Shown here: positions 2,632-17,790 of the stretch, piece by piece
How positions within the stretch are numbered: position 1 is the stretch's first letter
How the letters are laid out: each line of letters opens with the position of its first letter
Virus record (IMG/VR): IMGVR_UViG_3300039366_000282
Location: 1-18,260 of that record
Direction: 5' to 3' (one strand)
Length of the DNA: 18,260 nt
DNA from: a virus
Lineage: Duplodnaviria > Heunggongvirae > Uroviricota > Caudoviricetes
Notes under the pieces: generated by a model
Databases searched by the model: none
Told to the model about the DNA's origin: nothing
Seen by the model: only the letters and a program-made list of their open reading frames with translations
Position numbers and translations under genes: made by a program

Positions 2632-2649
2632 ATTTTATAACCCAGATAC

Positions 2650-2676
2650 GGGCGCCAGAAATGGCGCCTTTTTTAT
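2650..2676 (+). terminator. Rho-independent terminator after J
   Basis: GGCGCCA-GAAA-TGGCGCC perfect 7-bp GC-rich stem followed by TTTTTTATT, starting 19 nt after the J stop. Confidence 0.55.
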
Positions 2677-2698
2677 TGCAGAAAAGCGAGAGGTAATT

Positions 2699-3298
2699 AT
2701 GCGTAAATTATGTGCTGTTATTCTGTCCGCAGTAGTCTGGCTGGTTGCCGCTGGTACGCCAGCGAGCGCAGCAGAGCATCAGTCCACACTAAGCGCCGGG
2801 TATCTTCAGACCCATACTGATATGCCAGGCAGCGATGACCTGAAGGGCATTAATGTGAAATACCGTTATGAATTTACGGACACGCTGGGGCTGGTGACGT
2901 CATTCAGTTATGCCAATGCCAAAGATGAGCAAAAAACGCATTACAGCGATACCCGCTGGCATGAAGATTCAGTGCGTAACCGCTGGTTCAGCATGATGGC
3001 GGGGCCATCTGTACGCGTGAATGAATGGTTCAGTGCTTATGCGATGGCGGGTATGGCTTACAGCCGTGTGTCGACCTTCTCCGGGGATTATCTCCGCGTA
3101 ACTGACAACAAGGGGAAAACGCACGATGTGCTGACCGGAAGTGATGACGGTCGCCACAGCAACACGTCTCTGGCGTGGGGGGCTGGCGTGCAGTTTAACC
3201 CGACCGAATCCGTGGCCATTGACCTTGCTTATGAAGGTTCCGGCAGTGGTGACTGGCGCACTGACGGTTTCATCGTGGGTGTCGGTTATAAATTCTGA
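2699..3298 (+). CDS. lom: Lom outer-membrane protein (Ail/Lom family beta-barrel)
   Basis: 199-aa ORF with N-terminal signal peptide (MRKLCAVILSAVVWLVAAGTPASAA), C-terminal ...GVGYKF typical of OMP barrels; matches lambda Lom from memory; RBS GAGAGG 7 nt upstream of ATG; position immediately downstream of J as in lambda. Confidence 0.85.
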   Translation: MRKLCAVILSAVVWLVAAGTPASAAEHQSTLSAGYLQTHTDMPGSDDLKGINVKYRYEFTDTLGLVTSFSYANAKDEQKTHYSDTRWHEDSVRNRWFSMMAGPSVRVNEWFSAYAMAGMAYSRVSTFSGDYLRVTDNKGKTHDVLTGSDDGRHSNTSLAWGAGVQFNPTESVAIDLAYEGSGSGDWRTDGFIVGVGYKF

Positions 3299-3325
3299 TT
3301 AGCCAGGTAACACAGTGTTATGACA

Positions 3326-3351
3326 GCCCGCCGGTTCAGGCGGGCTTTTTT
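3326..3351 (+). terminator. Rho-independent terminator after lom
   Basis: GCCCGCC-GGTTCA-GGCGGGC stem-loop followed by TTTTTT. Confidence 0.55.
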
Positions 3352-3362
3352 GTGGAGTGGAT

Positions 3363-5738
3363 ATGGCAGCAGTAAAAATCTCAGGTGTGCTGAAAGATGG
3401 TGCGGGAAAACCAATACAGAACTGCACTATTCAACTGAAGGCAAAGCGTAACAGCACCACGGTACTGGTGAACACGGTGGCCTCTGAAAATCCGGATGAA
3501 GCCGGGCGTTACAGCATGGATGTTGAGTATGGCCAGTACAGCGTTATCCTGCTTGTTGAAGGTTTTCCGCCTTCACATGCCGGAACCATTACCGTCTATG
3601 AAGGTTCCAGACCAGGTACGCTGAATGATTTTCTCGGTGCCATGACGGAAGATGATGTCATGCCGGAGGCATTGCGTCGTTTTGAGGAAATGGTGGAAGA
3701 AGCGGCACGCAACGCCGAAGCCGCCTCTCAGAGCGCAGCGGCGGCAAAGAAATCCGAAACTGCAGCGGCATCATCGAAGAACGCGGCGAAAACCTCAGAA
3801 ACGAATGCAGCTAATAGTGCACAGGCGGCAGCGACCTCACAGACTGCATCAGAAAACTCCGCGACAGCAGCCAAAAAATCAGAAACCAACGCGAAAAATA
3901 GCGAGACAGCCGCAAAGACGAGCGAAACCAACGCAAAGTCCAGCCAGACGGCAGCGAAAACCAGCGAAACGAATGCCAAAGCCAGTGAAACTGCGGCGAA
4001 AAGCAGTCAGGATGCAGCAGCCGAAAGCGAGAGCGCGGCAGCCGGTTCTGCGACTTCAGCTGCTGGATCAGCAACTGCTGCGGCTAACAGTCAGAAAGCA
4101 GCGAAGACGAGTGAAACTAACGCAAAGTCCAGCCAGACGGCAGCGAAGACCAGCGAAACGAATGCCAAAGCCAGCGAAACTGCGGCGAAAAGCAGTCAGG
4201 ATGCAGCAGCCGAAAGCGAGAGTGCTGCAGCTGGTTCTGCAAGCGCGGCTGCTGCTTCTGCCACTGCATCAGCTAACAGTCAAAAAGCAGCAAAAACCAG
4301 TGAAACCAACGCAAAGGTGAGCGAAACAGCGGCTGCGAACTCAGCGAAAGCATCGGCAGCAAGCCAGACGGCAGCTAAAGCAAGCGAAGATGCAGCCAGA
4401 GAGTACGCAAGCCAGGCTGCGGAGCCGTATAAATATGTCTTACAGCCGCTGCCTGATGTGTGGATACCATTTAACGATTCGCTGGATATGATTACGGGCT
4501 TTTCGCCGTCATATAAAAAGATTGTTATTGGTGATGATGAAATAACGATGCCTGGCGACAAGGTTGTTAAGTTTAAACGCGCATCGAAAGCAACCTATAT
4601 TAATAAATCTGGTGTGCTGACAGAGGCTGCCATTGACGAGCCACGGTTTGAACGTGATGGCCTGCTTATTGAGGGGCAAAGAACGAACTACATGCTCAAT
4701 TCGGAAAGCCCTGCCAGTTGGGGGCGATCGTCAAATATGGATGTTCCCGAAACCGGGACGGATAGTTTTGGTTTTACCTATGGAAAGTTTGTCTGTAACG
4801 ATTCTCTGATTGGGCAAACCTCAGCCATTAATATGGCATCAATTGCTGCAACAAAGTCAGTTGATGTCTCAGGCGATAATAAATACGTGACAACCTCATG
4901 TCGTTTTAAAACAGAACTGCAGGTAAGGTTGCGTATCCGATTTGATAAATATGACGGTAGCGCAACAACTTTTCTTGGTGATGTGTATATTGATACACAA
5001 ACGCTTGAAATTAATATGACAGGCGGCGCTGCCTCAAGGATTACAGCGAGAGTCAGAAAGGACGAAGTTATCGGATGGATTTTTGCAGAGGCAACAATTC
5101 AGGCAATTGATGGGGAGTTAAAAATAGGTTCTCAGATACAGTATTCTCCTAAGCAGGGCGGGGCAACCGTATCTGGTGACTATATTTATCTGGCCACCCC
5201 ACAAGTAGAAAATGGGCCTTGTGTATCATCTTTTATTATATCAGGAACGACGGCGGCGACCCGCGCAAGCGATATAGTCACAGTTCCCATTAAGAATAAT
5301 CTTTATAATCTTCCTTTTACGGTTCTTTGTGAGGTACATAAGAACTGGTATAAAACGCCAAATGCAGCACCGCGTGTTTTTGATACCGGCGGTCATCAAA
5401 CCGGAGCGGCTATTATTCTTGGCTTCGGTTCTTCAGCAGATTACGACGGATTTCCTTATTGCGATATTGGTGGGTCTAACAGACGGATAAACGAAAATGC
5501 ATCACTTGAAAAAATGGTTATGGGGATGCGTGTAAAGTCTGATCAGTCTACATGCGCAGTAAGTAACGGGCGTATATCCAGCGAAACAAAAACCACATGG
5601 TCCTGTATTCAGAACACCGCAATTATCCGTATTGGAGGCCAGACTACAGCCGGGTTACGTCATTTATTTGGTCATGTAAGGAATTTCAGAATATGGCACA
5701 AGGCATTGACTGATGCTCAGGTGGGGGAGTCAATCTAA
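3363..5738 (+). CDS. stf: Side tail fibre protein: lambda Stf-like N-terminus, heptad-repeat shaft, divergent AT-rich C-terminal domain
   Basis: N-terminus MAAVKISGVLKDGAGKPIQNCTIQLKAKRNSTTV... matches lambda Stf from memory; ATG at 3363 preferred over track GTG 3357 (GGAG 5 nt upstream); long Ala/Ser/Thr/Lys heptad region (KTSETNA/KSSQTAA...); C-terminal ~430 aa encoded by visibly more AT-rich DNA, ending in a LamG-like motif (..VRNFRIWHKALTDAQV..). Confidence 0.8.
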   Translation: MAAVKISGVLKDGAGKPIQNCTIQLKAKRNSTTVLVNTVASENPDEAGRYSMDVEYGQYSVILLVEGFPPSHAGTITVYEGSRPGTLNDFLGAMTEDDVMPEALRRFEEMVEEAARNAEAASQSAAAAKKSETAAASSKNAAKTSETNAANSAQAAATSQTASENSATAAKKSETNAKNSETAAKTSETNAKSSQTAAKTSETNAKASETAAKSSQDAAAESESAAAGSATSAAGSATAAANSQKAAKTSETNAKSSQTAAKTSETNAKASETAAKSSQDAAAESESAAAGSASAAAASATASANSQKAAKTSETNAKVSETAAANSAKASAASQTAAKASEDAAREYASQAAEPYKYVLQPLPDVWIPFNDSLDMITGFSPSYKKIVIGDDEITMPGDKVVKFKRASKATYINKSGVLTEAAIDEPRFERDGLLIEGQRTNYMLNSESPASWGRSSNMDVPETGTDSFGFTYGKFVCNDSLIGQTSAINMASIAATKSVDVSGDNKYVTTSCRFKTELQVRLRIRFDKYDGSATTFLGDVYIDTQTLEINMTGGAASRITARVRKDEVIGWIFAEATIQAIDGELKIGSQIQYSPKQGGATVSGDYIYLATPQVENGPCVSSFIISGTTAATRASDIVTVPIKNNLYNLPFTVLCEVHKNWYKTPNAAPRVFDTGGHQTGAAIILGFGSSADYDGFPYCDIGGSNRRINENASLEKMVMGMRVKSDQSTCAVSNGRISSETKTTWSCIQNTAIIRIGGQTTAGLRHLFGHVRNFRIWHKALTDAQVGESI
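3906..4283 (+). repeat. 189-bp (63-codon) near-identical in-frame tandem duplication inside the tail-fibre shaft
   Basis: acgcaaagtccagccagacggcagcgaa... occurs at 3931 and again at 4120 (period 189 bp) with only a few substitutions; partial further units flank it. Confidence 0.85.
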
Positions 5739-6019
5739 TGAAAGATTTAACACTCAAATTTCCCGACAGGGCCGACTTTTCGGCCTTTATGGAGAGCATT
5801 GGCTATTATGATGACGAGTTGATGCAGGATGATATTCTTATTGACGTGATAGGTAACGTGTACAAAGAAACCGGAGAACTGACTGAAGATGGCGAACCGG
5901 TATGTGTTAAGGAAGACGGATATTTTGTAAACGTGCGCATCATTAATGATTCGCAAATATCGTCATTATTCGATGAATACGTGGTTGCTGTTGAGCATCA
6001 ACTTCGTGGCTGGATGTGA
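5738..6019 (+). CDS. Hypothetical 93-aa acidic protein, translationally coupled to the tail-fibre gene
   Basis: ATG overlaps the stf stop (TAATG at 5736-5740); GGGGGAG 8 nt upstream; no family recognised. Confidence 0.5.
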   Translation: MKDLTLKFPDRADFSAFMESIGYYDDELMQDDILIDVIGNVYKETGELTEDGEPVCVKEDGYFVNVRIINDSQISSLFDEYVVAVEHQLRGWM

Positions 6020-6028
6020 GGAAGAAAA

Positions 6029-7069
6029 ATGGCTACATCGACAGTAATTCCTGATGACATCAAAACGCTAAAATCCGACGTTAGCAAATTAAAAAACGAT
6101 CAAGGAAGCTACGCAACAAAATTATATGTAGACAGCAAAGATGAAATCGTTGGTGACTGGTCTGCTTCATGGTATCAGCAGGTATTGCCAACTAGCGGAG
6201 CTATATTTGGGAGAAAACTCCGCTCAACTCACAGGACGGCAGGTGTTGAGGATGCGTATTGCGAACTATACCTCAAAAAATGGATAGACAGTCCAGGTAA
6301 CGCAATGGCGCGCCTTAACCTGAACGATAACGGGACAAACATTTGCTGGGACTTTACCAACCTTTATGGCGGTACGATGATTTTTCCCGGTGACAGCGGA
6401 TACCTCAAAATGGGTAACTGCCTTATGTCATACAGCAAGCGTGGAAGTAACGCGCTTATTAAATTTGATTACACCGACACATTACAGATCAAATATGCCA
6501 ATCATGGGTCAACCATGACATTAAACACACAGGGAACCGCTTATGCTGGTGTTACTGCTCAATTGTGGGGCAACACCAGCCGTCCTGTTGTTTATGAAGT
6601 CGGTGTTGATGGTGGCGCTTATATGTTCTATGCGCAGAAAAATACCGATAACACCTATATGTTAAGCGTTAATGGTGCATGTCATGCCACCGCATTTAAC
6701 CAGCATTCCGACCGGGATCTGAAAGACAACATTCAGGTGATCGATAATGCAACCGACCGCATCCGTAAAATGAACGGCTATACATACACGCTTAAAGAAA
6801 ACGGTATGCCCTATGCTGGTGTCATTGCACAGGAAGCTCTGGAAGCAATCCCAGAAGTTGTAGGTTCCGCAATGAAATATCAGGACGGTGCAAGCGGATC
6901 GGAAGGTGAAGAAGGTGAACGTTATTACACAGTAGATTATTCTGGTGTTACTGGCTTGCTTGTTCAGGTAGCCAGAGAGTCAGACGACAGAATAACAGCA
7001 CTGGAAGAAGAAAACGCAGAATTAAGACAAAGATTATCTGCAATTGAGGCGGCGCTTGCGTCTAAATAA
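6029..7069 (+). CDS. Tail fibre/tailspike-like protein with C-terminal intramolecular chaperone (peptidase S74-type) domain
   Basis: RBS GAGGAAG before ATG; C-terminal region contains ..NQHSDRDLKDNIQVIDNATDRIRKMNGYTYTLKENG..YAGVIAQEALEAIPEVV.. followed by a coiled-coil tail (ALEEENAELRQRLSAIEAA), matching the SD-x-R-LK-x-NI self-cleaving chaperone signature of phage fibres as recalled. Confidence 0.65.
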   Translation: MATSTVIPDDIKTLKSDVSKLKNDQGSYATKLYVDSKDEIVGDWSASWYQQVLPTSGAIFGRKLRSTHRTAGVEDAYCELYLKKWIDSPGNAMARLNLNDNGTNICWDFTNLYGGTMIFPGDSGYLKMGNCLMSYSKRGSNALIKFDYTDTLQIKYANHGSTMTLNTQGTAYAGVTAQLWGNTSRPVVYEVGVDGGAYMFYAQKNTDNTYMLSVNGACHATAFNQHSDRDLKDNIQVIDNATDRIRKMNGYTYTLKENGMPYAGVIAQEALEAIPEVVGSAMKYQDGASGSEGEEGERYYTVDYSGVTGLLVQVARESDDRITALEEENAELRQRLSAIEAALASK

Positions 7070-7075
7070 TATTAA

Positions 7076-7098
7076 GGGGCCGAGCGCCCCGTTTTATT
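7076..7098 (+). terminator. Rho-independent terminator after the fibre module
   Basis: GGGGC-CGAGC-GCCCC hairpin followed by GTTTTATT, 7 nt after the stop at 7069. Confidence 0.55.
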
Positions 7099-7111
7099 GG
7101 GTAGGATGAAA

Positions 7112-7399
7112 ATGGATATAACACCTTTTCTTCATGCGCTTTGTGCTGTGGCTGCGCAGGTACTGGTTGGTTTTTTTACCGGAAACTGGGCTTACGGGGC
7201 GATAGCCGGTTGTACATTCTTCATTGCGCGGGAACACACCCAGGCAGAATATCGCTGGATTGAAATGTTCGGGCATGGCAAGCGGATTAACATGCCGTGG
7301 TGGGGCGGTTTTGATCCACGTGCATGGGATGTGGCAAGCCTGATGGATTTTGCTGTGCCGGTGGTGGCGTGTCTGCTGATCTGGATGTTGATCCGTTAA
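7112..7399 (+). CDS. Small hydrophobic (predicted membrane) protein, ~96 aa, unknown function
   Basis: ORF with two strongly hydrophobic stretches (ALCAVAAQVLVGFFTGNWAYGAIAGCTFFIA and FAVPVVACLLIWMLI); AGGA 5 nt upstream of ATG 7112 (track start 7097 is TTG; 7106 is an alternative ATG). Confidence 0.45.
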   Translation: MDITPFLHALCAVAAQVLVGFFTGNWAYGAIAGCTFFIAREHTQAEYRWIEMFGHGKRINMPWWGGFDPRAWDVASLMDFAVPVVACLLIWMLIR

Positions 7400-7747
7400 A
7401 TATAAAAAGTAAAAAGCCGCAGTAACTTGTCATGATAGGATACTGCGGCTGGCTGGTTAACTTTCGATAGTGCGAGTATTGAATGATTTCCAGCCGTTAC
7501 CGATTTTATATAACTGCAGTGGAATTATTCAACACACAGGCAAAACGGAATAAGCTGAGAAAAAAGCGTGCTTACCCAATCTGGGGTAAATCACGTCTGA
7601 ATGACACCTGAAAACAGGTGGTGGCCTCAAGAAGGCTTGGAATATTCTTCTTTAATGTTATGTAATTTATTGATTTTTCGTGTACGATTTTAAGACATTT
7701 ATTCCAAGAAAAATTTTTAACTCTTTGATTTTTCGACTCTGTATCAT

Positions 7748-7809
7748 CGGTCTCGAAAACCGGAGTAGGGGCAACTCTACCGGGGGTTCAAATCCCCCTC
7801 TCTCCGCCA
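7748..7809 (+). tRNA. Partial tRNA-Ser(CGA) (serU-type), 3' 62 nt only, without 5' acceptor/D-arm; att-core duplicate at the prophage boundary
   Basis: Anticodon stem-loop CCGGT-CTCGAAA-ACCGG (anticodon CGA), long variable arm, T-arm GGGGG-TTCAAAT-CCCCC, 3' acceptor strand TCTCTCC + G + CCA; no matching 5' strand (GGAGAGA...) upstream; matches E. coli serU 3' portion from memory. Confidence 0.75.
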
Positions 7810-8087
7810 ATCATTCAACAAAATCAATCACTTACAAAGCATTTTTGATTTTGTCGTGCATAAATCCCTGCATTAAAATTCCTTTCTCTCGCTCAATTTT
7901 TCTTACTACTGATGCTGTTTTTTACCATTTTGCCGCGCGTCGGGCATCCACTTTTATGCTCTCGAGTTCACACTCTTAACAACAACTTAGCCATTCCCCC
8001 GTCTCTGATGACAAAACAGTTGAACTTCAATTGTTCCAAACGGATCCTGTGAAGATATATCAAAGGAAATGGATTGTTGGAGGATGG

Positions 8088-8924
8088 ATGAAAAGAAGTG
8101 AAATCAGGAAAGCACTGGAAGCATGGTTTGATGTGGAACGCTATGAGGCGATAGAGAAACTCACCTTACAGCAGTTTTATGTTGAGGTTGAGCGGCGCAT
8201 CTTGGCTTACAGAATGTTGTTGAGCCGGAACACCATACCTACCTTTAACCGATTAATGCTGGATGATTACCGCAACAAGATCCTCAGCGGTGAAATCTTT
8301 TTCAGTGGTGATACTGAGACCATTGGATATGAGCTTGCCAGAACCTATGCGGTAAACCCTACGACAAGAAGCCACGCGCAATTTTATGCGAAAACTCTGT
8401 CATTAACCGAAGCCACGCCTGAACTCTCTGGGTTAAGCCAGTCTGAATTTCTGTCCGAATATCTGAAAGAGACATCCCTTAATAATCTTTCACGCATTAC
8501 TGTCGATATTCATCTGGAAGAAGCATCAACCGAAGAGATCATTGAACATCTGAAAGTGCTGATCCCTCAATGGAAGAGGCAGCTTAAGATGACGTCTCCA
8601 GCTCCAAGAGAGTATCGTTTCGGCAAAAGCACGTTCAGAAAAATTATTGAATATCGTCTTATCCCGATGATGGACCTGATCTTCTGGGGAGAAGATAACG
8701 GCATTAAAATCCCGCTTTCACTGATTTCCTCGTTGCTTCATGAGGACAGCGACAACGATCGTGATGAAGGAATGCTCAAGGCAACAGATTACCCGTTAGC
8801 AATGGCTTTTCTGACGGATGCGAGCTATCTGAAATCGCTTGAAGATTACATGATGGAAAACAACCACTTGAAAGACTCCCCTGTTGAAAAGCATGTAGAA
8901 GACGACAGGAATAAGAAAAAATAA
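8088..8924 (+). CDS. Hypothetical protein (278 aa from ATG 8088)
   Basis: Long ORF; track start 8031 is TTG; GGAGGA lies just upstream of ATG 8088; no family recognised. Confidence 0.5.
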   Translation: MKRSEIRKALEAWFDVERYEAIEKLTLQQFYVEVERRILAYRMLLSRNTIPTFNRLMLDDYRNKILSGEIFFSGDTETIGYELARTYAVNPTTRSHAQFYAKTLSLTEATPELSGLSQSEFLSEYLKETSLNNLSRITVDIHLEEASTEEIIEHLKVLIPQWKRQLKMTSPAPREYRFGKSTFRKIIEYRLIPMMDLIFWGEDNGIKIPLSLISSLLHEDSDNDRDEGMLKATDYPLAMAFLTDASYLKSLEDYMMENNHLKDSPVEKHVEDDRNKKK

Positions 8925-9140
8925 GCCAAGTAAAAAGGGTTACGTTCGCTCCGTGCGAACGTGATCGCATCCAGTGTCAACCGTTATCTTTCCATCCGTG
9001 CCCCTTCGAATTTTTCAAAAAAAACTTATTTGAACGTCCCTAAATTGTCATAAGCAAAATCGCTATCATTGTTCACGTCGAAACAACATAGAGAAAAGCG
9101 AAATCTCATAGAGATTACTTACAATAATAGAGGACAGACA

Positions 9141-9359
9141 ATGAAAGAAAATAATGAAACCAGCGTAAAACGATTTATCCGCGTTCCTGATGTTTTAAAT
9201 CGAGTGGGATTTAGTCGCACGACTTTATATGAACGTATTAAGGAAGGAAACTTTCCAGACAGAGTAAAAATAGGGCCAAGATGTGTCGCCTTTGTCGAAA
9301 GTGAGATTGATGAATGGATTGAAGCGGCTATTCGAAACTCACGCCAGAACGCAGCATAA
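9141..9359 (+). CDS. AlpA-family phage/island transcriptional regulator (small HTH)
   Basis: 72-aa product ..FIRVPDVLNRVGFSRTTLYERIKEGNFPDRVKIGPRCVAFVESEIDEWIE.. matches the AlpA/prophage CP4-57 regulator pattern from memory; RBS AGAGGA before ATG 9141. Confidence 0.7.
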   Translation: MKENNETSVKRFIRVPDVLNRVGFSRTTLYERIKEGNFPDRVKIGPRCVAFVESEIDEWIEAAIRNSRQNAA

Positions 9360-9440
9360 AAACAGAAACAAGATCTCGTGTCGAACAGATATCTGTTCGC
9401 TCAGGGCATCTTATTATCCTAAACAATAATGGAGAAAAAT

Positions 9441-9731
9441 ATGAAGATAGAGCTTATTACGACAAAACAGTTTATTGAACAAGCCGAATGTTATTTCAGG
9501 CGCTATATGGACGGATTGCGGAGGAATGCACCAGATGATTTTTATTATTTTCTCAACAATAAATACAATATGAATGACATTATGGAAAGTATCATTAAAA
9601 AAACGAGATATCATTTTTACGATGACACAGAAGAAAACCAAAGGAATCGGATTTATGGAGAAGTAAGCCACTGTAAGGTAAAACAACACCTTCGTCAGCT
9701 TTGGATTATCTATAAGTGTGTATACCGCTAA
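9441..9731 (+). CDS. Hypothetical small protein (96 aa)
   Basis: ORF with GGAGA 5 nt upstream of ATG 9441 (track start 9429 also possible); AT-rich; no recognised family. Confidence 0.4.
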   Translation: MKIELITTKQFIEQAECYFRRYMDGLRRNAPDDFYYFLNNKYNMNDIMESIIKKTRYHFYDDTEENQRNRIYGEVSHCKVKQHLRQLWIIYKCVYR

Positions 9732-9783
9732 TATTTATACAAATATTTTGCTATTCCAATATTAAACTAAAGAGGAAATAAAA

Positions 9784-10080
9784 ATGAATACATTTAAAAA
9801 TAAAACTACTAAAATCTTTTATGTTGTGTCCTTGCATATCTATGCGGAGCTTTTTAACTCAAAGGATAAAACGACCAGTAATATGATTATAACGCATGTA
9901 ATGGATCATGAGTTTGTTTGTAAGCTAATCGATCTGGCGATGAGAAATGCTGAAAAGCATCTTCTGAAAAAAGCATGGAAAAAGAACGCGGCTGAAAAAC
10001 TATCTGAGGTGGATTTTAAAGAGGTTAGGCAGGCATTAGCCAAAATGCACTACACTGTTCTGGCGGAATCAATATGTTGA
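9784..10080 (+). CDS. Hypothetical small protein (98 aa)
   Basis: ORF preceded by strong RBS AAAGAGGAAATAAAA-ATG; no recognised family. Confidence 0.4.
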   Translation: MNTFKNKTTKIFYVVSLHIYAELFNSKDKTTSNMIITHVMDHEFVCKLIDLAMRNAEKHLLKKAWKKNAAEKLSEVDFKEVRQALAKMHYTVLAESIC

Positions 10081-10152
10081 TATGTTCTGGTGTCTATCTG
10101 CCCCTTCTTGGGGCTGATAACAAATATTATTTTTCTATCCAAGGAGCAAAAA

Positions 10153-10395
10153 ATGACTGATGAATTTCATGTGATGTATATGTATAAAAAAATCCAAGCG
10201 GAAGCCGTAACTACTGACATCAAAACACTTGAACAGCTTTTGAAAAAGTTCAGGAGCGTTGTCAACGAACGTCGTGAAGAATACTATCAGGAGATTGGTG
10301 AGAAAAAAGCGCATAAGTTGAAAATGAAAAGATTACAAAGAATGCTTGAGAAAATGGCGTGTGACCGAGTCTCGCCAGAAGATCTCATTGACTGA
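10153..10395 (+). CDS. Hypothetical small charged/helical protein (80 aa)
   Basis: RBS AAGGAG 6 nt upstream of ATG 10153 (track ORF starts earlier at 10090 without an RBS); product lysine/glutamate-rich. Confidence 0.4.
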   Translation: MTDEFHVMYMYKKIQAEAVTTDIKTLEQLLKKFRSVVNERREEYYQEIGEKKAHKLKMKRLQRMLEKMACDRVSPEDLID

Positions 10396-10443
10396 TAAGT
10401 GTTCTGTATAATAACTTATCTATATAAAAACATGGAGGTGGTT

Positions 10444-10833
10444 ATGGGCTGGGAGCTTCACATAGTAAGAACGGAACATTGGTTCGATAGCGCAAGTGTT
10501 CCAATCAGTAGTGAAGAATGGCTCCAGCTTGTTAATGATGATAAAGAACTATCCATAGATAACAAGAACGGTGATTTTTTCGCCATATGGAGTGGTCAAA
10601 GTGAACTCGATGAACCTTGGCTTGACTGGAGTGATGGAAGAATTTCAACAAAACATCCTGACGAAGCCCTTTACTGTAAAATGTTGCAGATAGCTGAGAA
10701 GCTACATGCTGTAGTCGTTGATGAGGATGATCACAAATATTCGCTACCAAGTGACCTGATGAATCCTTCATGGGCGAATTCATCACTGACTGATAAAAAA
10801 CAAACTTTATGGAAAAGGTTGTTTTCAAAATAG
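10444..10833 (+). CDS. Hypothetical protein (129 aa, Trp/Asp-rich)
   Basis: RBS GGAGGTGG before ATG 10444 (MGWELHIVRTEHW...); track ORF starts at 10399. Confidence 0.45.
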   Translation: MGWELHIVRTEHWFDSASVPISSEEWLQLVNDDKELSIDNKNGDFFAIWSGQSELDEPWLDWSDGRISTKHPDEALYCKMLQIAEKLHAVVVDEDDHKYSLPSDLMNPSWANSSLTDKKQTLWKRLFSK

Positions 10834-11139
10834 TTTTGTCAAGTATTCAGGGAATAGCAATGGCACGCCGAATTGATCTTCATGAAATTGTTAACGCTCT
10901 CAACGGGAGCTTTGTTAGTCGAAACAACGACTTTAGAAGATACGGGGCTATTGGGCAGTTAAAATCATTGGCTATCTGTATTAGCTCAGACTTGATCTGG
11001 TGGTTTTCACTGGTAGCACACTATCAAATCTGACAGTCTGCTATGAGCGAGGAGCGGAAGTTAGTACCTCCGATGCTATAGCGCAGCGTTCTTAATTATG
11101 TAAAAATATTCTACCATTCAAGTAAAGTAAGTGAAAACA

Positions 11140-15428: not shown

Positions 15429-16163
15429 TCAGGATACTTTCTGCATATGAGAGTCGGCGTCAACAGCGTTTCTTCTTGCTTCCTCATTTTCCTTTGTTCT
15501 TTTATATACTTTTCGTGGTTTATCAATATGTATGCTGTTATTTGTATTAGGAACAGCATTATTCTTTTTCTTCTTACTGAAAACAAATGCGTCAGTATAG
15601 ATTTCTTTGGTCTCAGTTTCTAAGGATAGGGTTCTTCTTTCACTTTTTGACATAGCTGAATAACTTTCTGGATACTGTTCTATTTCTGCGCAAAGATTGC
15701 GAGCGTTGCTCAACTGTTCTTTACGTTTCTGATCCAGTTGGTGACTCATTCCTTTAGCGAAAATGTTAGAGTTGATATAGAGATGACCATGATGCTCGAC
15801 GAGTATTCCTTTCTGTCTGAGTTTTTTAAAAATGTTAGACATATTACCGGAAGCGATGTTCAGTGCTTTACACAGCGATGATTGCGAAAGATTGATCAGA
15901 TTTCCAAACTCCATATACTCCAGAATATAGGTTAATACACGGAATTCATTCTTGGATATGTCAAGATCAGAGAAGACACGAAAGTTGGAAGTAAAAGCAA
16001 ATACATAAGGTTGTGAAAACGATATAGCTTTATCTTCCTCAGAAGAAATAACTGTCGTTGATTTTATTTCTTTGTTTTGTAGCAAGCGTCTTGCGATATC
16101 AATCTTTTGTTCTGTAGTTAATGATTCAAATAAGTGTAATAGATCAGCATCTGGTGTATTCAT
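15429..16163 (-). CDS. Winged-helix DNA-binding protein, RepL-like (putative replication initiator or regulator)
   Basis: 244 aa from ATG 16163 (track start 16226 would lie upstream of the predicted promoter); segment ..ISKNEFRVLTYILEYMEFGNLINLSQSSLCKALNIASGNMSNIFKKLRQKGILVEHHGHLYINSNIFAKG.. resembles RepL-type wHTH proteins as recalled; repeated palindromes upstream. Confidence 0.5.
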   Translation of the reverse strand: MNTPDADLLHLFESLTTEQKIDIARRLLQNKEIKSTTVISSEEDKAISFSQPYVFAFTSNFRVFSDLDISKNEFRVLTYILEYMEFGNLINLSQSSLCKALNIASGNMSNIFKKLRQKGILVEHHGHLYINSNIFAKGMSHQLDQKRKEQLSNARNLCAEIEQYPESYSAMSKSERRTLSLETETKEIYTDAFVFSKKKKNNAVPNTNNSIHIDKPRKVYKRTKENEEARRNAVDADSHMQKVS

Positions 16164-16197
16164 ATTATTCTCTCTTATTATTTTTGTTATATATATT

Positions 16198-16226
16198 TTA
16201 ATACTATGCAAAAAAGTGAAAGTCAA
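16198..16226 (-). promoter_or_regulatory. Putative sigma70 promoter for the minus-strand operon (TTGACT-17-TATTAA)
   Basis: On the minus strand, -35 TTGACT (16221-16226) and -10 TATTAA (16198-16203) are separated by 17 nt, about 35 nt upstream of ATG 16163. Confidence 0.4.
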
Positions 16227-16287
16227 TAGTAGAACTATAAATAAAATAGGAAGTATATTCTTATGACAATGTTATATGTTAAAAAAA

Positions 16288-16371
16288 CTATGTTCGAACA
16301 TAGATCTTGCTATGTTCGAACATAGGACGGATCTATGTTTGAACATAGGAGTTTGCTATGTTCGAACATAG
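16288..16371. promoter_or_regulatory. Array of four 16-bp palindromes CTATGTTCGAACATAG (one with a single mismatch) at 22-23-bp spacing; putative operator/iteron array
   Basis: Perfect palindromes at 16288-16303, 16310-16325, 16356-16371 and CTATGTTTGAACATAG at 16333-16348; located 60-150 bp upstream of the predicted promoter of the RepL-like gene. Confidence 0.6.
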
Positions 16372-16627
16372 GAAAAAAAGTTGTGAAGCCGCGATTTTAC
16401 TGGTCCGGGACTATGCTTATAATTAAATAATTAGTAAGAAGTTAAGAGAGTCCAGTTTTACTTTTGCGTTATGTTTTAGTGGTTTTACAGGGGGTATTGT
16501 ATTCCTTAATAACTGCTATCAGCGAAGTGATTGTTTCGAACAATCACGAACCGCTGCTTTTATTGCGAGAGCTTAATTAAGATTTCTTTTGTTTTATTAG
16601 CGTCTACGACGCGATCTTTTTTTGGAT

Positions 16628-16790
16628 AAATCCATCATTAACAGGGGCAAGCCCTGTCCAGCAAAGTGATTGTTGCCAACAATCACGAAGTGCTGCTACT
16701 AAGGATATAGTTTTCCTATGTGTTTAAGAGCAAATGCTATATGTCAGAGGGAATATCATGTTCGCATAGGATCTGAATTCTAACTTGGTG
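16628..16790 (+). repeat. Copy 1 of a ~160-bp non-coding direct repeat module
   Basis: aaatccatcattaacaggggcaagccctgtccagcaaagtgattgttgccaacaatcacgaagtgctgctactaagg... recurs at 17124 at roughly 90% identity (period 496 bp); contains the palindrome GTGATTGTT-GCC-AACAATCAC. Confidence 0.8.
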
Positions 16791-17123
16791 GAGGGAATGA
16801 TCTTTATACTGATCGCTTTGTTGTCCATTGATAAAATATTAATGCATTATAGCTGAACAAGGAAAATAGTTTTATACCAGTATTAGGGGCGTAGCCGTGC
16901 GCCAGCACAATGTATGTATTTTCAAAAAAATAATTGAATGTATCAGGTAAAAATAAATATCAATAAATGTAAGTAAGAGTGTTCTGTAAACTGTTAATAA
17001 ACCGCACAGGAAGTGTGGTAAGGATTTGGGATCTGAAAGATAACACATATAACCATCTTCACGCTTAAAGCTCTTATAACTGATTACAGGCAGTAATTTA
17101 TATGGGAAAAATTATTAATTGAA

Positions 17124-17286
17124 AAATCCATCATTAACAGGGACAAGCCCTGTCCAGCAAAGTGATTGTTGGCAACAATCACGAAGTGCTGCTACTAAAG
17201 ATATAGTTTTCCTATACGTTTAAGAGCAAATGCTATATGTCAGATGGGGAATGCTATGTTTAAAAATAGGATCCGAATTAAAAGTT
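17124..17286 (+). repeat. Copy 2 of the ~160-bp non-coding direct repeat module
   Basis: Near-identical to 16628-16790; palindrome GTGATTGTT-GGC-AACAATCAC at 17162-17182; hairpin CAGGG-ACAAG-CCCTG. Confidence 0.8.
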
Positions 17287-17520
17287 AAAAGGAAAATAGA
17301 TCTGACTATGAGCGAATACATTCGCTTATTAGCTCATAGTAGTAAAATAAAATACAAAATGTCAGTTTTAGGGCGTAGCCGTGCATAAGCACAGAGATAA
17401 AAATCTTTTCAAAAAGAAGTTTAATAATAAGAAGTAAAATCATTAATAAATGAAAATATATTTGATTTTTACACTTGCGATAGAGTATTAAACAGTAATA
17501 AATAAAAAAAGGAAAATATA

Positions 17521-17790
17521 ATGAATAATATCAAAATGATCACACTCTTCCATCCACATGACAAAACACCATTTATGATCTGTATTGTAAACACAGTAGA
17601 AGATACAGAACTTGGATTGAAATTAACTCTTGAAAACGGCAACAGCATTTGTGTCAATAACTATGACCATTATCTGTTATCAGAGTCTGTAAGTCGTTGT
17701 GATAAAGACAGGGTGAAAAATATTTATATCCGTTTGGTTTCAGAACTCACACAGATGAGTGAAGAAACTATAAAATCACAGATGTTATAA
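17521..17790 (+). CDS. Hypothetical small protein (89 aa)
   Basis: ORF with RBS AGGAAAATATA-ATG; possible promoter TTGATT-18-TATTAA at 17462-17491; no recognised family. Confidence 0.4.
   Translation: MNNIKMITLFHPHDKTPFMICIVNTVEDTELGLKLTLENGNSICVNNYDHYLLSESVSRCDKDRVKNIYIRLVSELTQMSEETIKSQML

What the first reader, a model, noticed from the sequence alone, without database searches (positions are those of the whole stretch)
16521..17480. 1.3-kb gene-free region with a tandemly duplicated ~160-bp module and a recurring 21-bp palindrome GTGATTGTT-N3-AACAATCAC
The divergent genes at 16163 (minus) and 17521 (plus) are separated by about 1.3 kb with no convincing ORF. A roughly 160-bp module occurs twice (16628-16790 and 17124-17286, period 496 bp). 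The palindrome occurs three times (16527-16547, 16666-16686, 17162-17182) with identical arms but different 3-nt spacers (TCG, GCC, GGC). Hairpins CAGGG-N5-CCCTG and GTGC-N4-GCAC are kept in both copies while their loops differ (GCAAG vs ACAAG; GCCA vs ATAA), which hints at selection on structure or protein binding rather than coding. Small ORFs inside the module are not conserved between copies (ATG to ACG in copy 2). Candidates are sRNA genes, an origin of replication or transfer, or a repeated regulatory site.
Basis: seen in the sequence. Interest (0 to 1): 0.6.

Follow-up and report, generated by a model that had tools for sequence, protein, structure and literature searches.

The report
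Conserved non-coding control region of island
The gene-free 1.35 kb beside the RepL gene of an E. coli genomic island is a widely conserved, so far undescribed non-coding control region of repeated palindrome-bearing units that most likely act as regulated promoters for small RNAs, though what reads the palindromes is not settled.

Summary
The window is an E. coli chromosome carrying an EARL/ROD21-type island at tRNA-Ser. The gap 16164-17520 has no annotated gene. It holds three exact copies of GTGATTGTT-N3-AACAATCAC and a 496-bp tandem duplication.

The two copies are 88-98% identical over the ~125-nt module "M", about 50% in the middle, and conserved again at GGGCGTAGCCGTGC-N4-GCAC ("box5"). 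So this is an old duplication under differential selection, not a recent neutral one.

M and box5 recur in at least 18 genera of Enterobacterales and in 72 distinct metagenome units, always on the same strand. M is nearly always preceded by an intrinsic terminator. It lies next to RepL-type iteron arrays. It is followed by orf89 or by a strong terminator. Arms are invariant, spacers vary in sequence but not in length. M is more conserved than the flanking genes.

Best reading (confidence about 0.35): the palindromes are operators laid over + strand promoters that drive small non-coding transcripts or an orf89 leader.

Rivals are hairpins acting in RNA, and RepL-linked origin or single-strand DNA signals. 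oriT and RfaH ops membership were tested and not met. Rfam and the literature hold nothing.

The parts
15429..16163 (-). repL-like gene (winged-helix protein). It flanks the region on the left.
   Evidence: RefSeq names it 'replication/maintenance protein RepL'. Pfam RepL scores 20.9 bits, just above its cut-off, and HTH_36 also matches.
16288..16371 (.). Array of four 16-bp palindromes, CTATGTT(C/T)GAACATAG, spaced 22-23 bp apart. These are the presumed RepL binding sites (iterons or operator).
   Evidence: Arrays of the same architecture but different sequence accompany other RepL types: GTTTCC-N6-GGAAAC in Klebsiella, and CTGACT-N4-AGTCAG before + strand repL-like genes.
16396..16423 (+). 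Promoter-like site P1, TTTACT-16-TATAAT, divergent from repL.
   Evidence: 10 of 12 matches. It is conserved in islands with the same RepL type: L004, L022, L048, L065, L100, L206.
16520..16558 (+). Unit U0: the extended inverted repeat CAGCG-AA-GTGATTGTT-TCG-AACAATCAC-GAAC-CGCTG, followed by CTTTTATT. It is a truncated paralogue of M. In this island it is terminator-like for P1 transcripts. In relatives it carries a good promoter (-35 just upstream, -10 TACAAT in the right arm).
16600..16622 (+). Intrinsic terminator Term2, GCGTC-TAC-GACGC plus a T run, directly abutting M copy A.
   Evidence: It is present before M in nearly all lineages. It has two compensating alleles, GCGTC/GACGC and GCGGC/GCCGC. 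In some genera it ends a + strand ORF.
16624..16744 (+). Module M, copy A. Its parts are the 5' box GGATAAATCCATCA (16624-16637), IR1 ACAGGG-N5-CCCTGT (16641-16657), the extended IR2 with the palindrome (16659-16697), the -10-like TATAGT (16706-16711), and the conserved block TTTTCCTATGTGTTTAAGAGCAAATGCTATATGT (16712-16744).
16887..16908 (+). box5 copy A, GGGCGTAGCCGTGC-GCCA-GCAC, followed by TTTTCAAAAAA at about 16919-16929.
   Evidence: When loci are collected through M instead, box5 has 0-1 mismatch in 61 of 72 units.
17120..17240 (+). Module M, copy B. It has no terminator in front of it. Its parts are the 5' box with 2 changes (TGAAAAATCCATCA), IR1 (17137-17153), extended IR2 (17155-17193), TATAGT (17202-17207), and the conserved block ending at 17240.
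   Evidence: nhmmer E 8e-43.
17254..17269 (.). Degenerate iteron-like palindrome CTATGTTTAAAAATAG inside unit B. In CFT073-type islands it is the perfect palindrome CTATGTTTAAACATAG.
17371..17392 (+). box5 copy B, GGGCGTAGCCGTGC-ATAA-GCAC, followed by TTTTCAAAAA at 17406-17415.
17462..17491 (+). Proximal promoter-like site of orf89, TTGATT-18-TATTAA.
   Evidence: Read from the sequence. It is conserved in Klebsiella and other genera, and the same motif precedes + strand repL-like genes.
17521..17790 (+). orf89, a small beta-rich protein of unknown function. It is the usual downstream neighbour of the M-box5 unit.

Best explanation
The gap is the conserved non-coding control region of an EARL/ROD21-family island. 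It is built from tandem paralogous units on the + strand.

The core of each unit is a 39-bp interrupted inverted repeat: CAGCR-AA-GTGATTG-N7-CAATCAC-GAAS-YGCTG. I propose this repeat is an operator, the site of a dimeric DNA-binding protein that is still unknown, laid over promoter elements.

- **Upstream unit U0.** The repeat covers the spacer and the -10 hexamer. The -35 sits just 5' of CAGC. The short transcript ends at the terminator Term2.
- **Full units M.** The repeat is centred about 42 bp upstream of the start predicted from a conserved -10-like TATAGT that has no -35. This is the geometry of an activator-dependent (class II) or -35-occluded promoter.
- **The M transcript.** It would begin with the conserved block UUUAAGAGCAAAUGCUAUAUGU and carry the near-invariant box GGGCGUAGCCGUGC-N4-GCAC. 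In this island it would run on into orf89 as a leader. In other genera it would stop at a strong terminator, giving a free-standing RNA of about 200-350 nt.
- **Insulation.** Terminators in front of the units protect the regulated promoters from read-through.
- **The 496-bp repeat.** It is an old duplication of the M unit.

Shown: the anatomy, its conservation, the terminators, the promoter-like hexamers and their fixed positions. Inferred: transcription starts, protein binding, and the regulatory logic.
For: **1. Selection.**
- M is 81-83% identical between the E. coli and Klebsiella islands. The adjacent variable stretch is 52% identical, orf89 is 55% at nucleotide and 46% at amino-acid level, and RepL is 24% at amino-acid level.
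- Inside this one genome the two copies kept M (88-98%) and box5 while the rest fell to about 50%.

**2. Arms and spacers.** IR2 is N7 in about 150 distinct copies and IR1 is N5. Arms are invariant and spacers vary in sequence but not in length. No length variant was found for either.

**3. Promoter signal, asymmetric between strands.**
- At U0 copies a sigma-70 weight-matrix score taken at the palindrome averages 5.6 bits on the + strand. 48% of copies score at least 6 bits, against 0.3% of background positions. The reverse strand averages -0.8.
- The tool scan finds TGGACA-16-TACAAT (10 of 12) in Klebsiella and ATTACA-17-TACAAT in the CFT073 type. Each sits between two terminator-like hairpins.

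**4. U0 and M differ in the right arm.**
- The right-arm hexamer is TACAAT in 41 of 75 U0 copies and in 0 of 78 M copies. That T improves a -10 hexamer but breaks the palindrome.
- In 61 of 78 M copies the best -10-like hexamer (TATAGT in 51) lies exactly 19 nt after the palindrome.

**5. Terminators.**
- A + strand terminator precedes M in nearly all lineages and covaries.
- A strong + strand terminator follows box5 in ten loci.

**6. The palindrome is dispensable for the rest of M.** A fourth M-like copy without the palindrome sits after the dotA/traY terminator, upstream of another gene (L001 26894-26989, nhmmer E 5e-10). This is consistent with the palindrome being a regulatory add-on to a promoter or leader module.

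**7. Precedent.** Mobilisable islands carry class II boxes for a master activator upstream of xis, rep and tra genes (PMC4207636).
Against: - No transcription data exist here, so every start site is predicted.
- The M promoter has no -35. Its in-arm hexamer is poor, and AGCAAT in Klebsiella-type copies loses the key A.
- The window's own U0 promoter is weak (CTATCA-17-AACAAT).
- The constant palindrome-to-TATAGT distance may simply reflect overall conservation of M.
- No binding protein is identified. No HTH protein is consistently adjacent, and orf89 gave an unusable model with pLDDT 57.7.
- The outer arms CAGCR/YGCTG are out of register by 2 nt in duplex DNA. That suits a folded hairpin better than a symmetric protein site. 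They also show a compensating difference between U0 and M.
- Three or four different inverted repeats with the same behaviour would need several proteins. A single folded strand explains them with one mechanism.
- box5 has no role in this model beyond 'conserved RNA or DNA element'.
Confidence: 0.35

Rival explanations
1. The inverted repeats act as hairpins in a + strand RNA. On this reading the units are structured non-coding RNAs, or a cis-acting leader of the orf89 operon, whose stems are read by an RNA-binding protein or act in attenuation or processing.
For: - Single-sequence folds give the same two hairpins in both copies, with z-scores of -2.5 and -4.5.
- The consensus fold keeps 16 pairs, 4 of them with a double change somewhere.
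- Yersinia has GGAG/CTCC where E. coli has CAGGG/CCCTG.
- The outer stem differs in a compensating way between U0 (CAGCG/CGCTG) and M (CAGCA/TGCTG), and its asymmetric internal loop is conserved.
- In the E. coli and Klebsiella lineages the U0 hairpin is followed by a T run.
- All terminators are on the + strand.
- box5 with its neighbours folds into three short hairpins closed by a stem.
Against: - The stems are almost invariant, so covariation rests on very few events.
- Non-Watson-Crick cells are 3 G.T against 7 A.C on the + strand, so there is no wobble signal for a + strand RNA.
- M begins directly after a terminator and no promoter upstream of its hairpins was found.
- Palindromic operators also covary arm against arm.
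- No Rfam family matches.
- The T run after U0 is missing in several lineages.
Confidence: 0.25
2. The units belong to the RepL replication or maintenance system. They would be either host-factor sites of an origin, or hairpins that act in the single-stranded transferred DNA to prime complementary-strand synthesis (ssi or sso-like).
For: - M-box5 lies next to a four-fold iteron array of a RepL-type gene in both arrangements: repL on the minus strand upstream, or on the plus strand downstream.
- M is constant while RepL and its iterons change, as expected for host-read parts of an origin.
- The start of M contains TTATCCA(A/T)A on the minus strand, 8 of 9 positions of a DnaA box (read from the sequence; consensus from my own knowledge).
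- Terminator insulation is typical of origins.
- The sense strand of the hairpins is the strand inferred to be transferred, because the inverted repeat lies 5' of the nick-like block on the + strand beside mobQ (inference by analogy with R1162).
- ICEBs1 has a single-strand origin (my own knowledge).
Against: - RepL assignment is weak: Pfam 20.9 bits against a cut-off of 20.3.
- M also occurs without an adjacent RepL, in L013 and L122.
- A fourth M-like copy lies far from repL.
- A single 8-of-9 DnaA box is about what chance gives in 1.3 kb.
- There is no long imperfect hairpin carrying -35 and -10, as in Frpo.
- None of this is testable with the tools available here.
Confidence: 0.15
3. box5 read on the minus strand, GTGC-N4-GCAC-GGCTACGCCCT, is the MOBQ-type origin of transfer: an inverted repeat followed by a nick site.
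For: - CGCCCT and the preceding T match the MOBQ core TAAGTGCGCCCT (consensus from PMC3832669), at the right distance from a small inverted repeat.
- The island encodes a MobQ relaxase.
- box5 is nearly invariant.
Against: - Only 7 of 12 positions match.
- Matches to the consensus with up to 3 mismatches in 41 kb number 13 against 25 expected, and none lies at box5.
- A 70-bp block with a 7-bp inverted repeat and a nick-like tail lies directly upstream of mobQ. It is 100% identical between E. coli and Intestinirhabdus although the relaxases are only 60% identical.
- box5 is duplicated here and lies 19 kb from mobQ.
- The stem of its inverted repeat is only 4 bp.
Confidence: 0.03
4. The repeat is a functionless by-product of slippage or recombination between palindromes.
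For: - Unit number varies between lineages, with periods of 139, 296, 324, 347 and 496 bp.
- Hybrid units exist, so the palindromes do promote rearrangement.
Against: - Decay is differential between the paralogues.
- M and box5 are conserved across genera above the level of the neighbouring genes.
- Orientation and context are fixed.
Confidence: 0.02

Closest known systems
Master-activator boxes in mobilisable genomic islands (AcaCD boxes of SGI1 and MGIVmi1; SetCD boxes)
   Same: - A short conserved DNA site recurs upstream of island genes, including rep.
- The geometry is class II, with a poor or absent -35.
- The elements are mobilisable islands that depend on a helper (PMC4207636).
   Different: - The AcaCD motif itself could not be compared, because the logo is not in the text.
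- No activator is known here.
- The site is a 7+7 palindrome with an N7 spacer.
- It also occurs over a -10 hexamer in U0.
- In the 41 kb examined it is confined to this one region.
Plasmid global-regulator operators over promoters (for example KorA and KorB operators of RK2)
   Same: An invariant palindrome is repeated at several promoters of a maintenance region, overlapping core promoter elements (my own knowledge).
   Different: - No cognate regulator gene is identified.
- There are only 2-3 sites and they are clustered.
- The sequences are unrelated.
Island- or plasmid-borne small RNAs with intrinsic terminators (for example the SGI1 sgm-sRNA, PMC9299015; isrN)
   Same: These are short transcription units bounded by a promoter and a rho-independent terminator inside horizontally acquired islands.
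   Different: - No sequence or Rfam relationship exists.
- Transcription is not shown here.
RfaH ops element (GGCGGTAGCGTG)
   Same: - box5, GGGCGTAGCCGTG, shares GG..GTAGC..GTG.
- It lies on the non-template strand of a leader.
- It has GG at -11/-10 and TG at -1/+1, as in a consensus pause.
- It can form a small GGC-GTA-GCC hairpin.
   Different: - Positions 3 and 4 are swapped (CG to GC). G4C alone abolishes RfaH recruitment (PMC5995543).
- There is one extra base before TG.
- No NusG paralogue was found among the 27 products of the 41-kb stretch scanned.
MOBQ oriT (R1162/RSF1010 type)
   Same: An inverted repeat is followed within 8 nt by a ..CGCCCT motif, in an island with a MobQ relaxase.
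   Different: - It fails the consensus.
- A better candidate lies beside mobQ.

Membership tests
EARL / ROD21-like genomic island (context of the element) | A tRNA-borne island with an AlpA-type RDF, an H-NS paralogue, TraD and a MOBQ relaxase (PMC6035254, PMC10763509). | tested here: met
   Found after tRNA-Ser: AlpA (PF05930), two H-NS-like proteins, TraD (PF06412) and a MobQ relaxase. The CFT073 and E2348/69 islands named in those papers carry the same module.
Any Rfam RNA family | A covariance-model score at or above the family's gathering threshold. | tested here: not met
   0 hits in the window. Only chance miRNA-like hits on the iterons at E of 0.03 or worse. None on the module in 7 related loci.
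Rho-independent terminator (Term2, 16600-16622) | A G+C-rich stem, a short loop and a 3' T run on the transcribed strand. | tested here: met
   GCGTCTACGACGC followed by GATCTTTTTT. The same holds in L005 and L002. There are two compensating stem alleles among 59 distinct sequences.
Sigma-70 promoter overlapped by an operator | -35 and -10 hexamers 16-18 bp apart. | tested here: inconclusive
   - Met at U0 in relatives, with 10 of 12 and 9 of 12 matches and 48% of copies at 6 bits or more.
- Weak at the window's own U0.
- At M only a -10-like TATAGT at a fixed offset, with no -35.
Sigma-70 promoter overlapped by an operator | A protein that binds the inverted repeat. | not testable with these tools
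   No candidate was identified. The orf89 model is unusable.
MOBQ oriT | Nick-region consensus NWACCNNTAAGTGCGCCCTYNN next to an inverted repeat, usually beside the relaxase gene. | tested here: not met
   There is no match at box5 with up to 3 mismatches, and matches overall number 13 against 25 expected. A conserved inverted repeat plus nick-like block lies beside mobQ instead.
RfaH ops | GGCGGTAGnnTG with G4, G5, T6, A7 and G8 required. | tested here: not met
   box5 has G at position 3 and C at position 4. G4C abolishes recruitment (PMC5995543). G5, T6, A7, G8 and the TG are present.
Iteron-type replication origin | Repeated Rep-binding sites. | tested here: met
   Four palindromic repeats at 16288-16371, just outside the finding's coordinates. 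Equivalent type-specific arrays occur in other genera. That RepL binds them is inferred.
Iteron-type replication origin | DnaA box(es), an AT-rich unwinding element, and origin activity. | not testable with these tools
   Only an 8-of-9 DnaA-box-like TTATCCAAA at the start of M, read from the sequence. No functional test is possible.
Single-strand initiation signal or ssDNA promoter (Frpo, G4-type or phiX-type ssi, sso) | An orientation-specific fold of the transferred strand that recruits RNA polymerase or primase. Frpo is a long imperfect hairpin carrying -35 and -10. | not testable with these tools
   Only short hairpins of 5 and 9+5 bp are present and no long hairpin. There is no DNA similarity to plasmid leading regions: 4 plasmid records match, and all are island-like contexts.

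The most novel reading that the evidence does not exclude
The M-box5 unit is a sensing and elongation-control cassette shared by a whole family of mobilisable islands. The invariant palindrome would be the box of a trans-acting master regulator, helper-encoded or island-encoded, which switches the island's RepL/orf89 module on. This would be analogous to AcaCD boxes in SGI1. box5 would be an ops-like consensus-pause site whose non-template-strand hairpin GGC-GTA-GCC recruits an elongation factor other than E. coli RfaH.
Probability: 0.1. Interest if true: 0.75.

Novelty: new member of a known kind. Interest (0 to 1): 0.5.

Why it matters
**Where the islands occur.** EARL/ROD21-type islands sit in uropathogenic E. 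coli (the CFT073 serU island with TcpC), EPEC E2348/69, Salmonella Enteritidis and Klebsiella ST258.

**What is unknown about them.** Their excision is studied, but how their replication, maintenance and transfer genes are controlled is unknown. Their non-coding DNA has not been described in the papers I could search.

**What this work adds.** This module is the most conserved sequence of its neighbourhood across at least 18 genera. In E. coli the 1.3-kb region matches 10% of complete genomes, and the 43-nt palindrome segment alone matches 14%.

It gives a precise, testable handle on island regulation:
- three short boxes to mutate;
- predicted RNA 5' and 3' ends to map;
- a duplex probe to fish for the regulator.

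**Limits.** If the palindrome proves to be a helper-sensing or switch operator, it would explain how these islands time their mobilisation. If it is only a promoter and leader, it is useful annotation and not a surprise.

Tried and rejected
- **Rfam.** Searches at gathering and at permissive thresholds, on the window and on seven related loci, found nothing relevant.
- **Coding potential.** The ORFs in the gap are short, unannotated and not conserved. A 15-22 aa reading frame starting at the first bases of M changes frame and end between lineages and has no ribosome-binding site, so it was rejected.
- **oriT at box5.** Rejected on the consensus and on the better mobQ-proximal block.
- **RfaH ops.** Rejected on positions 3 and 4. 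No NusG or KOW protein was found among 27 island products scanned against Pfam.
- **Strand from wobble pairs.** 3 G.T against 7 A.C on the + strand, which is uninformative.
- **Sigma-70 promoter upstream of the M hairpins or just before box5.** No position scored consistently. A minus-strand TTGCTC-18-TATATT appears in 32 of 86 units but is degraded to TATATC in the E. coli lineage.
- **orf89 as the binding protein.**
  - No family was found in Pfam, NCBIfam or PHROGs.
  - Homologues are unnamed and limited to Enterobacteriaceae.
  - The AlphaFold2 model has pLDDT 57.7, too poor for a fold search.
- **Plasmids and phages.** The module is in no phage record. It is in only four 'plasmid' records, and the two examined (Klebsiella, Yersinia) show island-like context.
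- **Core-genome regulon.** The 43-nt palindrome segment is in 758 of 5426 E. coli genomes only, so it is not a site of a universal host regulon.
- **Literature.** Exact-string searches for the boxes returned no relevant paper. The EARL papers and a 2026 preprint on island oriTs do not mention the region.
- **dif/cer, LexA, CRP, attC, REP and RCR nick-site resemblances.** I considered these by eye from memory and dropped them as poor matches. They were not tested with tools.
Full report
**Where the window comes from.** The 1.3-kb query is 100% identical to several E. coli chromosomes. In NZ_CP031215 the window covers the following, in order:
- ybtP-ybtS, an integrase, tRNA-Asn, mtfA and tRNA-Ser;
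- then an island with DUF6387, an AlpA-type regulator, two H-NS-like proteins, DUF4756 and RepL;
- the gap, then orf89 and orf128;
- further on, a restriction enzyme, DotA/TraY, a reverse transcriptase, a MobQ relaxase, TraD and a PilV shufflon.

This gene set is that of the EARL/ROD21-like islands (PMC6035254, PMC10763509). CFT073-type and E2348/69 islands carry the same region. A putative 35-kb ICE with repL, traYD and mobQ noted in mouse strain MP1 has the same gene set and may be the same island; this was not checked (PMC11773190). None of these papers mentions the non-coding region.

**The observation.**
- The repeat is 127 nt at 94% with period 496. The palindrome is present three times with identical 9-bp arms and different spacers. 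The two small hairpins have differing loops, and ATG is ACG in copy B.
- The palindrome is far beyond chance: 0 matches in 200 shuffles even with 2 mismatches allowed.
- The repeat is really a duplication of a whole ~496-bp unit. Identity is 88-98% over the first ~125 nt (module M), about 50% in the middle, 75% around GGGCGTAGCCGTGC-N4-GCAC (box5), and low afterwards.
- Such differential decay between paralogues in one genome means the duplication is old and that M and box5 are under purifying selection.

- Four 16-bp palindromes (CTATGTTCGAACATAG) at 22-23-bp spacing lie just upstream of repL.
- A + strand promoter-like site, TTTACT-16-TATAAT, lies at 16396-16423.
- An intrinsic terminator, GCGTCTACGACGC plus T7, lies at 16600-16622 and ends two bases before M copy A.
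- The first palindrome (16520-16558) is embedded in the same extended inverted repeat as the other two: CAGCG-AA-...-GAAC-CGCTG against CAGCA-AA-...-GAAG-TGCTG. It is a truncated paralogue, which I call U0.

**Distribution.**
- The region matches 540 of 5426 complete E. coli genomes. Of these, 131 have the two-unit form and most have one unit at 80-85% identity. It is always chromosomal.
- The 43-nt extended palindrome alone is in 758 genomes at 1-10 places each, and never on plasmids.
- BLAST found diverged copies in Klebsiella and Yersinia.
- A scan of one genome per species with box5 gave 23 further Enterobacterales loci among many chance hits in GC-rich genomes. They come from Apirhabdus, Enterobacter, Mangrovibacter, Intestinirhabdus, Salmonella, Kluyvera, Brenneria, Citrobacter, Raoultella, Buttiauxella, Cedecea, Pluralibacter, Serratia, Pectobacterium, Photorhabdus and Klebsiella.
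- That scan makes the invariance of box5 circular, so I repeated the collection from metagenomes with an anchor in the 5' end of M. In 72 distinct units the palindrome core GTGATTG-N7-CAATCAC is present in all. Five carry one or two substitutions.
- box5 follows at 198-267 nt with 0-1 mismatch in 59 of them. Two further units carry it at 402 nt, beyond an intervening M copy. Most units without it are first members of M-M tandem arrays.
- The module is absent from phage records. It appears in only four 'plasmid' records; the two examined (Klebsiella, Yersinia) show island-like context.

**Common anatomy**. From 5' to 3' on one strand:
1. A terminator, Term2. It has two compensating alleles, GCGTC/GACGC and GCGGC/GCCGC. 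In some genera it ends a + strand ORF.
2. M, made of these parts in order:
   - TGGATAAATCCATCA;
   - IR1, ACAGGG-N5-CCCTGT;
   - IR2, CAGCA-AW-GTGATTG-N7-CAATCAC-KAAG-TGCTG;
   - 19 nt;
   - TATAGT;
   - TTTTCCTATRCGTTTAAGAGCAAATGCTATATGT.
3. A variable stretch of 60-130 nt. It is absent in Pectobacterium and K. grimontii.
4. ATGTCAG-NGT-YAGGGCGTAGCCGTGC-N4-GCAC, often followed by ATGAGC-N4-GCTCAT, and then TTTTCAAAAA.
5. One of two endings:
   - the orf89 promoter and gene, or
   - a strong terminator (GAAACCCCATATGGCGATCATAAAAATCGCCCGGTTTCTTTT), then four iterons of another type (CTGACT-N4-AGTCAG), a + strand repL-like gene, and orf89.

Further points on this anatomy:
- M-box5 is tied to RepL-type iteron arrays on either side, but its sequence does not change when the RepL type and iterons change.
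- M is 81-83% identical between E. coli and Klebsiella. The variable part is 52%, orf89 is 55% (46% aa) and RepL is 24% aa.
- Unit number varies by lineage, with periods of 139, 296, 324, 347 and 496 bp. A hybrid U0/M unit shows that recombination between palindromes produces this variation.

**What reads the palindromes?** Arms are invariant and spacers vary in sequence but not in length, in roughly 150 distinct copies. That fits both a protein site on duplex DNA and a hairpin whose stem matters.

Covariation is scarce:
- a few double changes in IR1 (Yersinia GGAG/CTCC);
- one in the inner pair of IR2;
- the U0/M difference in the outer stem.

Mismatches give no strand signal, with 3 G.T against 7 A.C.

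Two observations favour a promoter-operator reading.
- First, at U0 copies a sigma-70 weight matrix placed on the palindrome scores well on the + strand only. The mean is 5.6 bits and 48% of copies reach 6 bits, against 0.3% of background positions. The reverse strand averages -0.8.
- The tool scan finds TGGACA-16-TACAAT (10 of 12) in Klebsiella and ATTACA-17-TACAAT in the CFT073 type. Each lies between two terminator-like hairpins, about 70 nt before Term2.
- Second, the right-arm hexamer is TACAAT in 41 of 75 U0 copies and in none of 78 M copies. That T improves a -10 hexamer while breaking the palindrome. In contrast, 61 of 78 M copies have their best -10-like hexamer, mostly TATAGT, exactly 19 nt after the palindrome.
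- This puts the palindrome centre near -42 of a promoter without a -35, the class II geometry reported for master-activator boxes in other mobilisable islands (PMC4207636).

A fourth M-like copy sits after the dotA/traY terminator. It lacks the palindrome but keeps the 5' box, TATAGT and the conserved block. This suggests the palindrome is a regulatory add-on to a promoter or leader module.

**Weak points of the operator reading.**
- The M promoter has no -35.
- The window's own U0 promoter is weak.
- The constant distance may only reflect conservation.
- No binding protein is known.
- The 2-nt asymmetry of the outer arms suits a folded strand better.
- Several different inverted repeats behave alike.

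I therefore give the operator-promoter model 0.35, RNA hairpins 0.25, and origin or single-strand DNA signals 0.15.

**Hypotheses tested and not met.**
- *MOBQ oriT.* box5 on the minus strand resembles a MOBQ nick region, but it fails the consensus. A 70-bp block with an inverted repeat and a nick-like tail lies directly beside mobQ. It is 100% identical between E. coli and Intestinirhabdus although the relaxases are only 60% identical. That block also indicates, by analogy with R1162, that the + strand is the transferred strand. This keeps a single-strand DNA role formally possible.
- *RfaH ops.* box5 resembles the ops element (GGCGGTAGCGTG) and has the GG...TG of a consensus pause. However, positions 3 and 4 are swapped, and G4C abolishes RfaH recruitment (PMC5995543). 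No NusG paralogue was found in the island.
- *Rfam and literature.* Rfam has no matching family. Exact-string literature searches found nothing.
- *orf89.* It has no family assignment and the model is unusable, with pLDDT 57.7.

**Verdict.** This is a real, strongly conserved and apparently undescribed non-coding module of a medically relevant island family. Its kind is most likely ordinary: regulated promoters with small transcripts or a leader, next to a RepL iteron array. The particular element is new, and its reader (protein, RNA fold or single-stranded DNA) is unresolved. Interest is 0.5.

Noticed in passing
window 16288-16371; L005 4689-4775; L079 (reverse-complemented) about 2217-2300: RepL-type genes are always accompanied by four palindromic sites at 21-23-bp spacing. 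Their sequence changes with the RepL type: CTATGTTCGAACATAG, GTTTCC-N6-GGAAAC, CTGACT-N4-AGTCAG, and direct repeats in Yersinia. A degenerate copy of the first type sits inside the M units even in islands whose own RepL uses another type.
   Followed up: partly
L001 38065-38130 (outside the window, upstream of mobQ): A likely oriT. This 70-bp block contains the inverted repeat ACACTGC-GTA-GCAGTGT followed by ATAGGTGGGCATTG. It is 100% identical between the E. coli island and Intestinirhabdus alba although the relaxases are only 60% identical.
   Followed up: partly
L001 26894-26989 and about 26994-27046 (outside the window): A fourth M-like copy lacking the palindrome lies after the dotA/traY terminator. 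It is followed by a (CTAA)n tetranucleotide repeat of about 12 units upstream of the next gene, which could be a phase-variable tract.
   Followed up: partly
L005 4851-4868; L002 about 5840-5865; L006 about 4925-4947; L037, L065: A conserved hairpin GTGCC-N8-11-GGCAC followed by a T-rich tail precedes the U0 unit in many lineages, but not in the window's lineage.
   Followed up: no
L002 5676-5716; L060, L081, L101, L144: Upstream of a third RepL type lies a conserved element, GTACCGGGATTCGGGACTTTAACTCCC...CGGTAC. It has nested complementary segments and some compensating differences between loci. It could be an RNA or protein-binding structure.
   Followed up: no
L006 1275-1408: Rfam isrN (Hfq-binding sRNA, 81.8 bits) lies near the start of the Yersinia pseudotuberculosis island.
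   Followed up: no
window 1-11000: The yersiniabactin island (ybtPQXS, integrase, tRNA-Asn) and the EARL-type island at tRNA-Ser lie back to back, separated only by mtfA.
   Followed up: no
L001 35019-36393 (outside the window): An HTH protein gene overlaps a reverse-transcriptase gene just before mobQ. This may be a retron- or DRT-like defence cassette carried as island cargo.
   Followed up: no
window 16856-16868, 17287-17298, 17507-17518: AAGGAAAATA recurs once in each unit and again as the orf89 ribosome-binding site. The M block AUAUAGUUUUCCU is complementary to it (7+4 pairs with one bulge). A leader starting in M could therefore mask the orf89 Shine-Dalgarno sequence.
   Followed up: no
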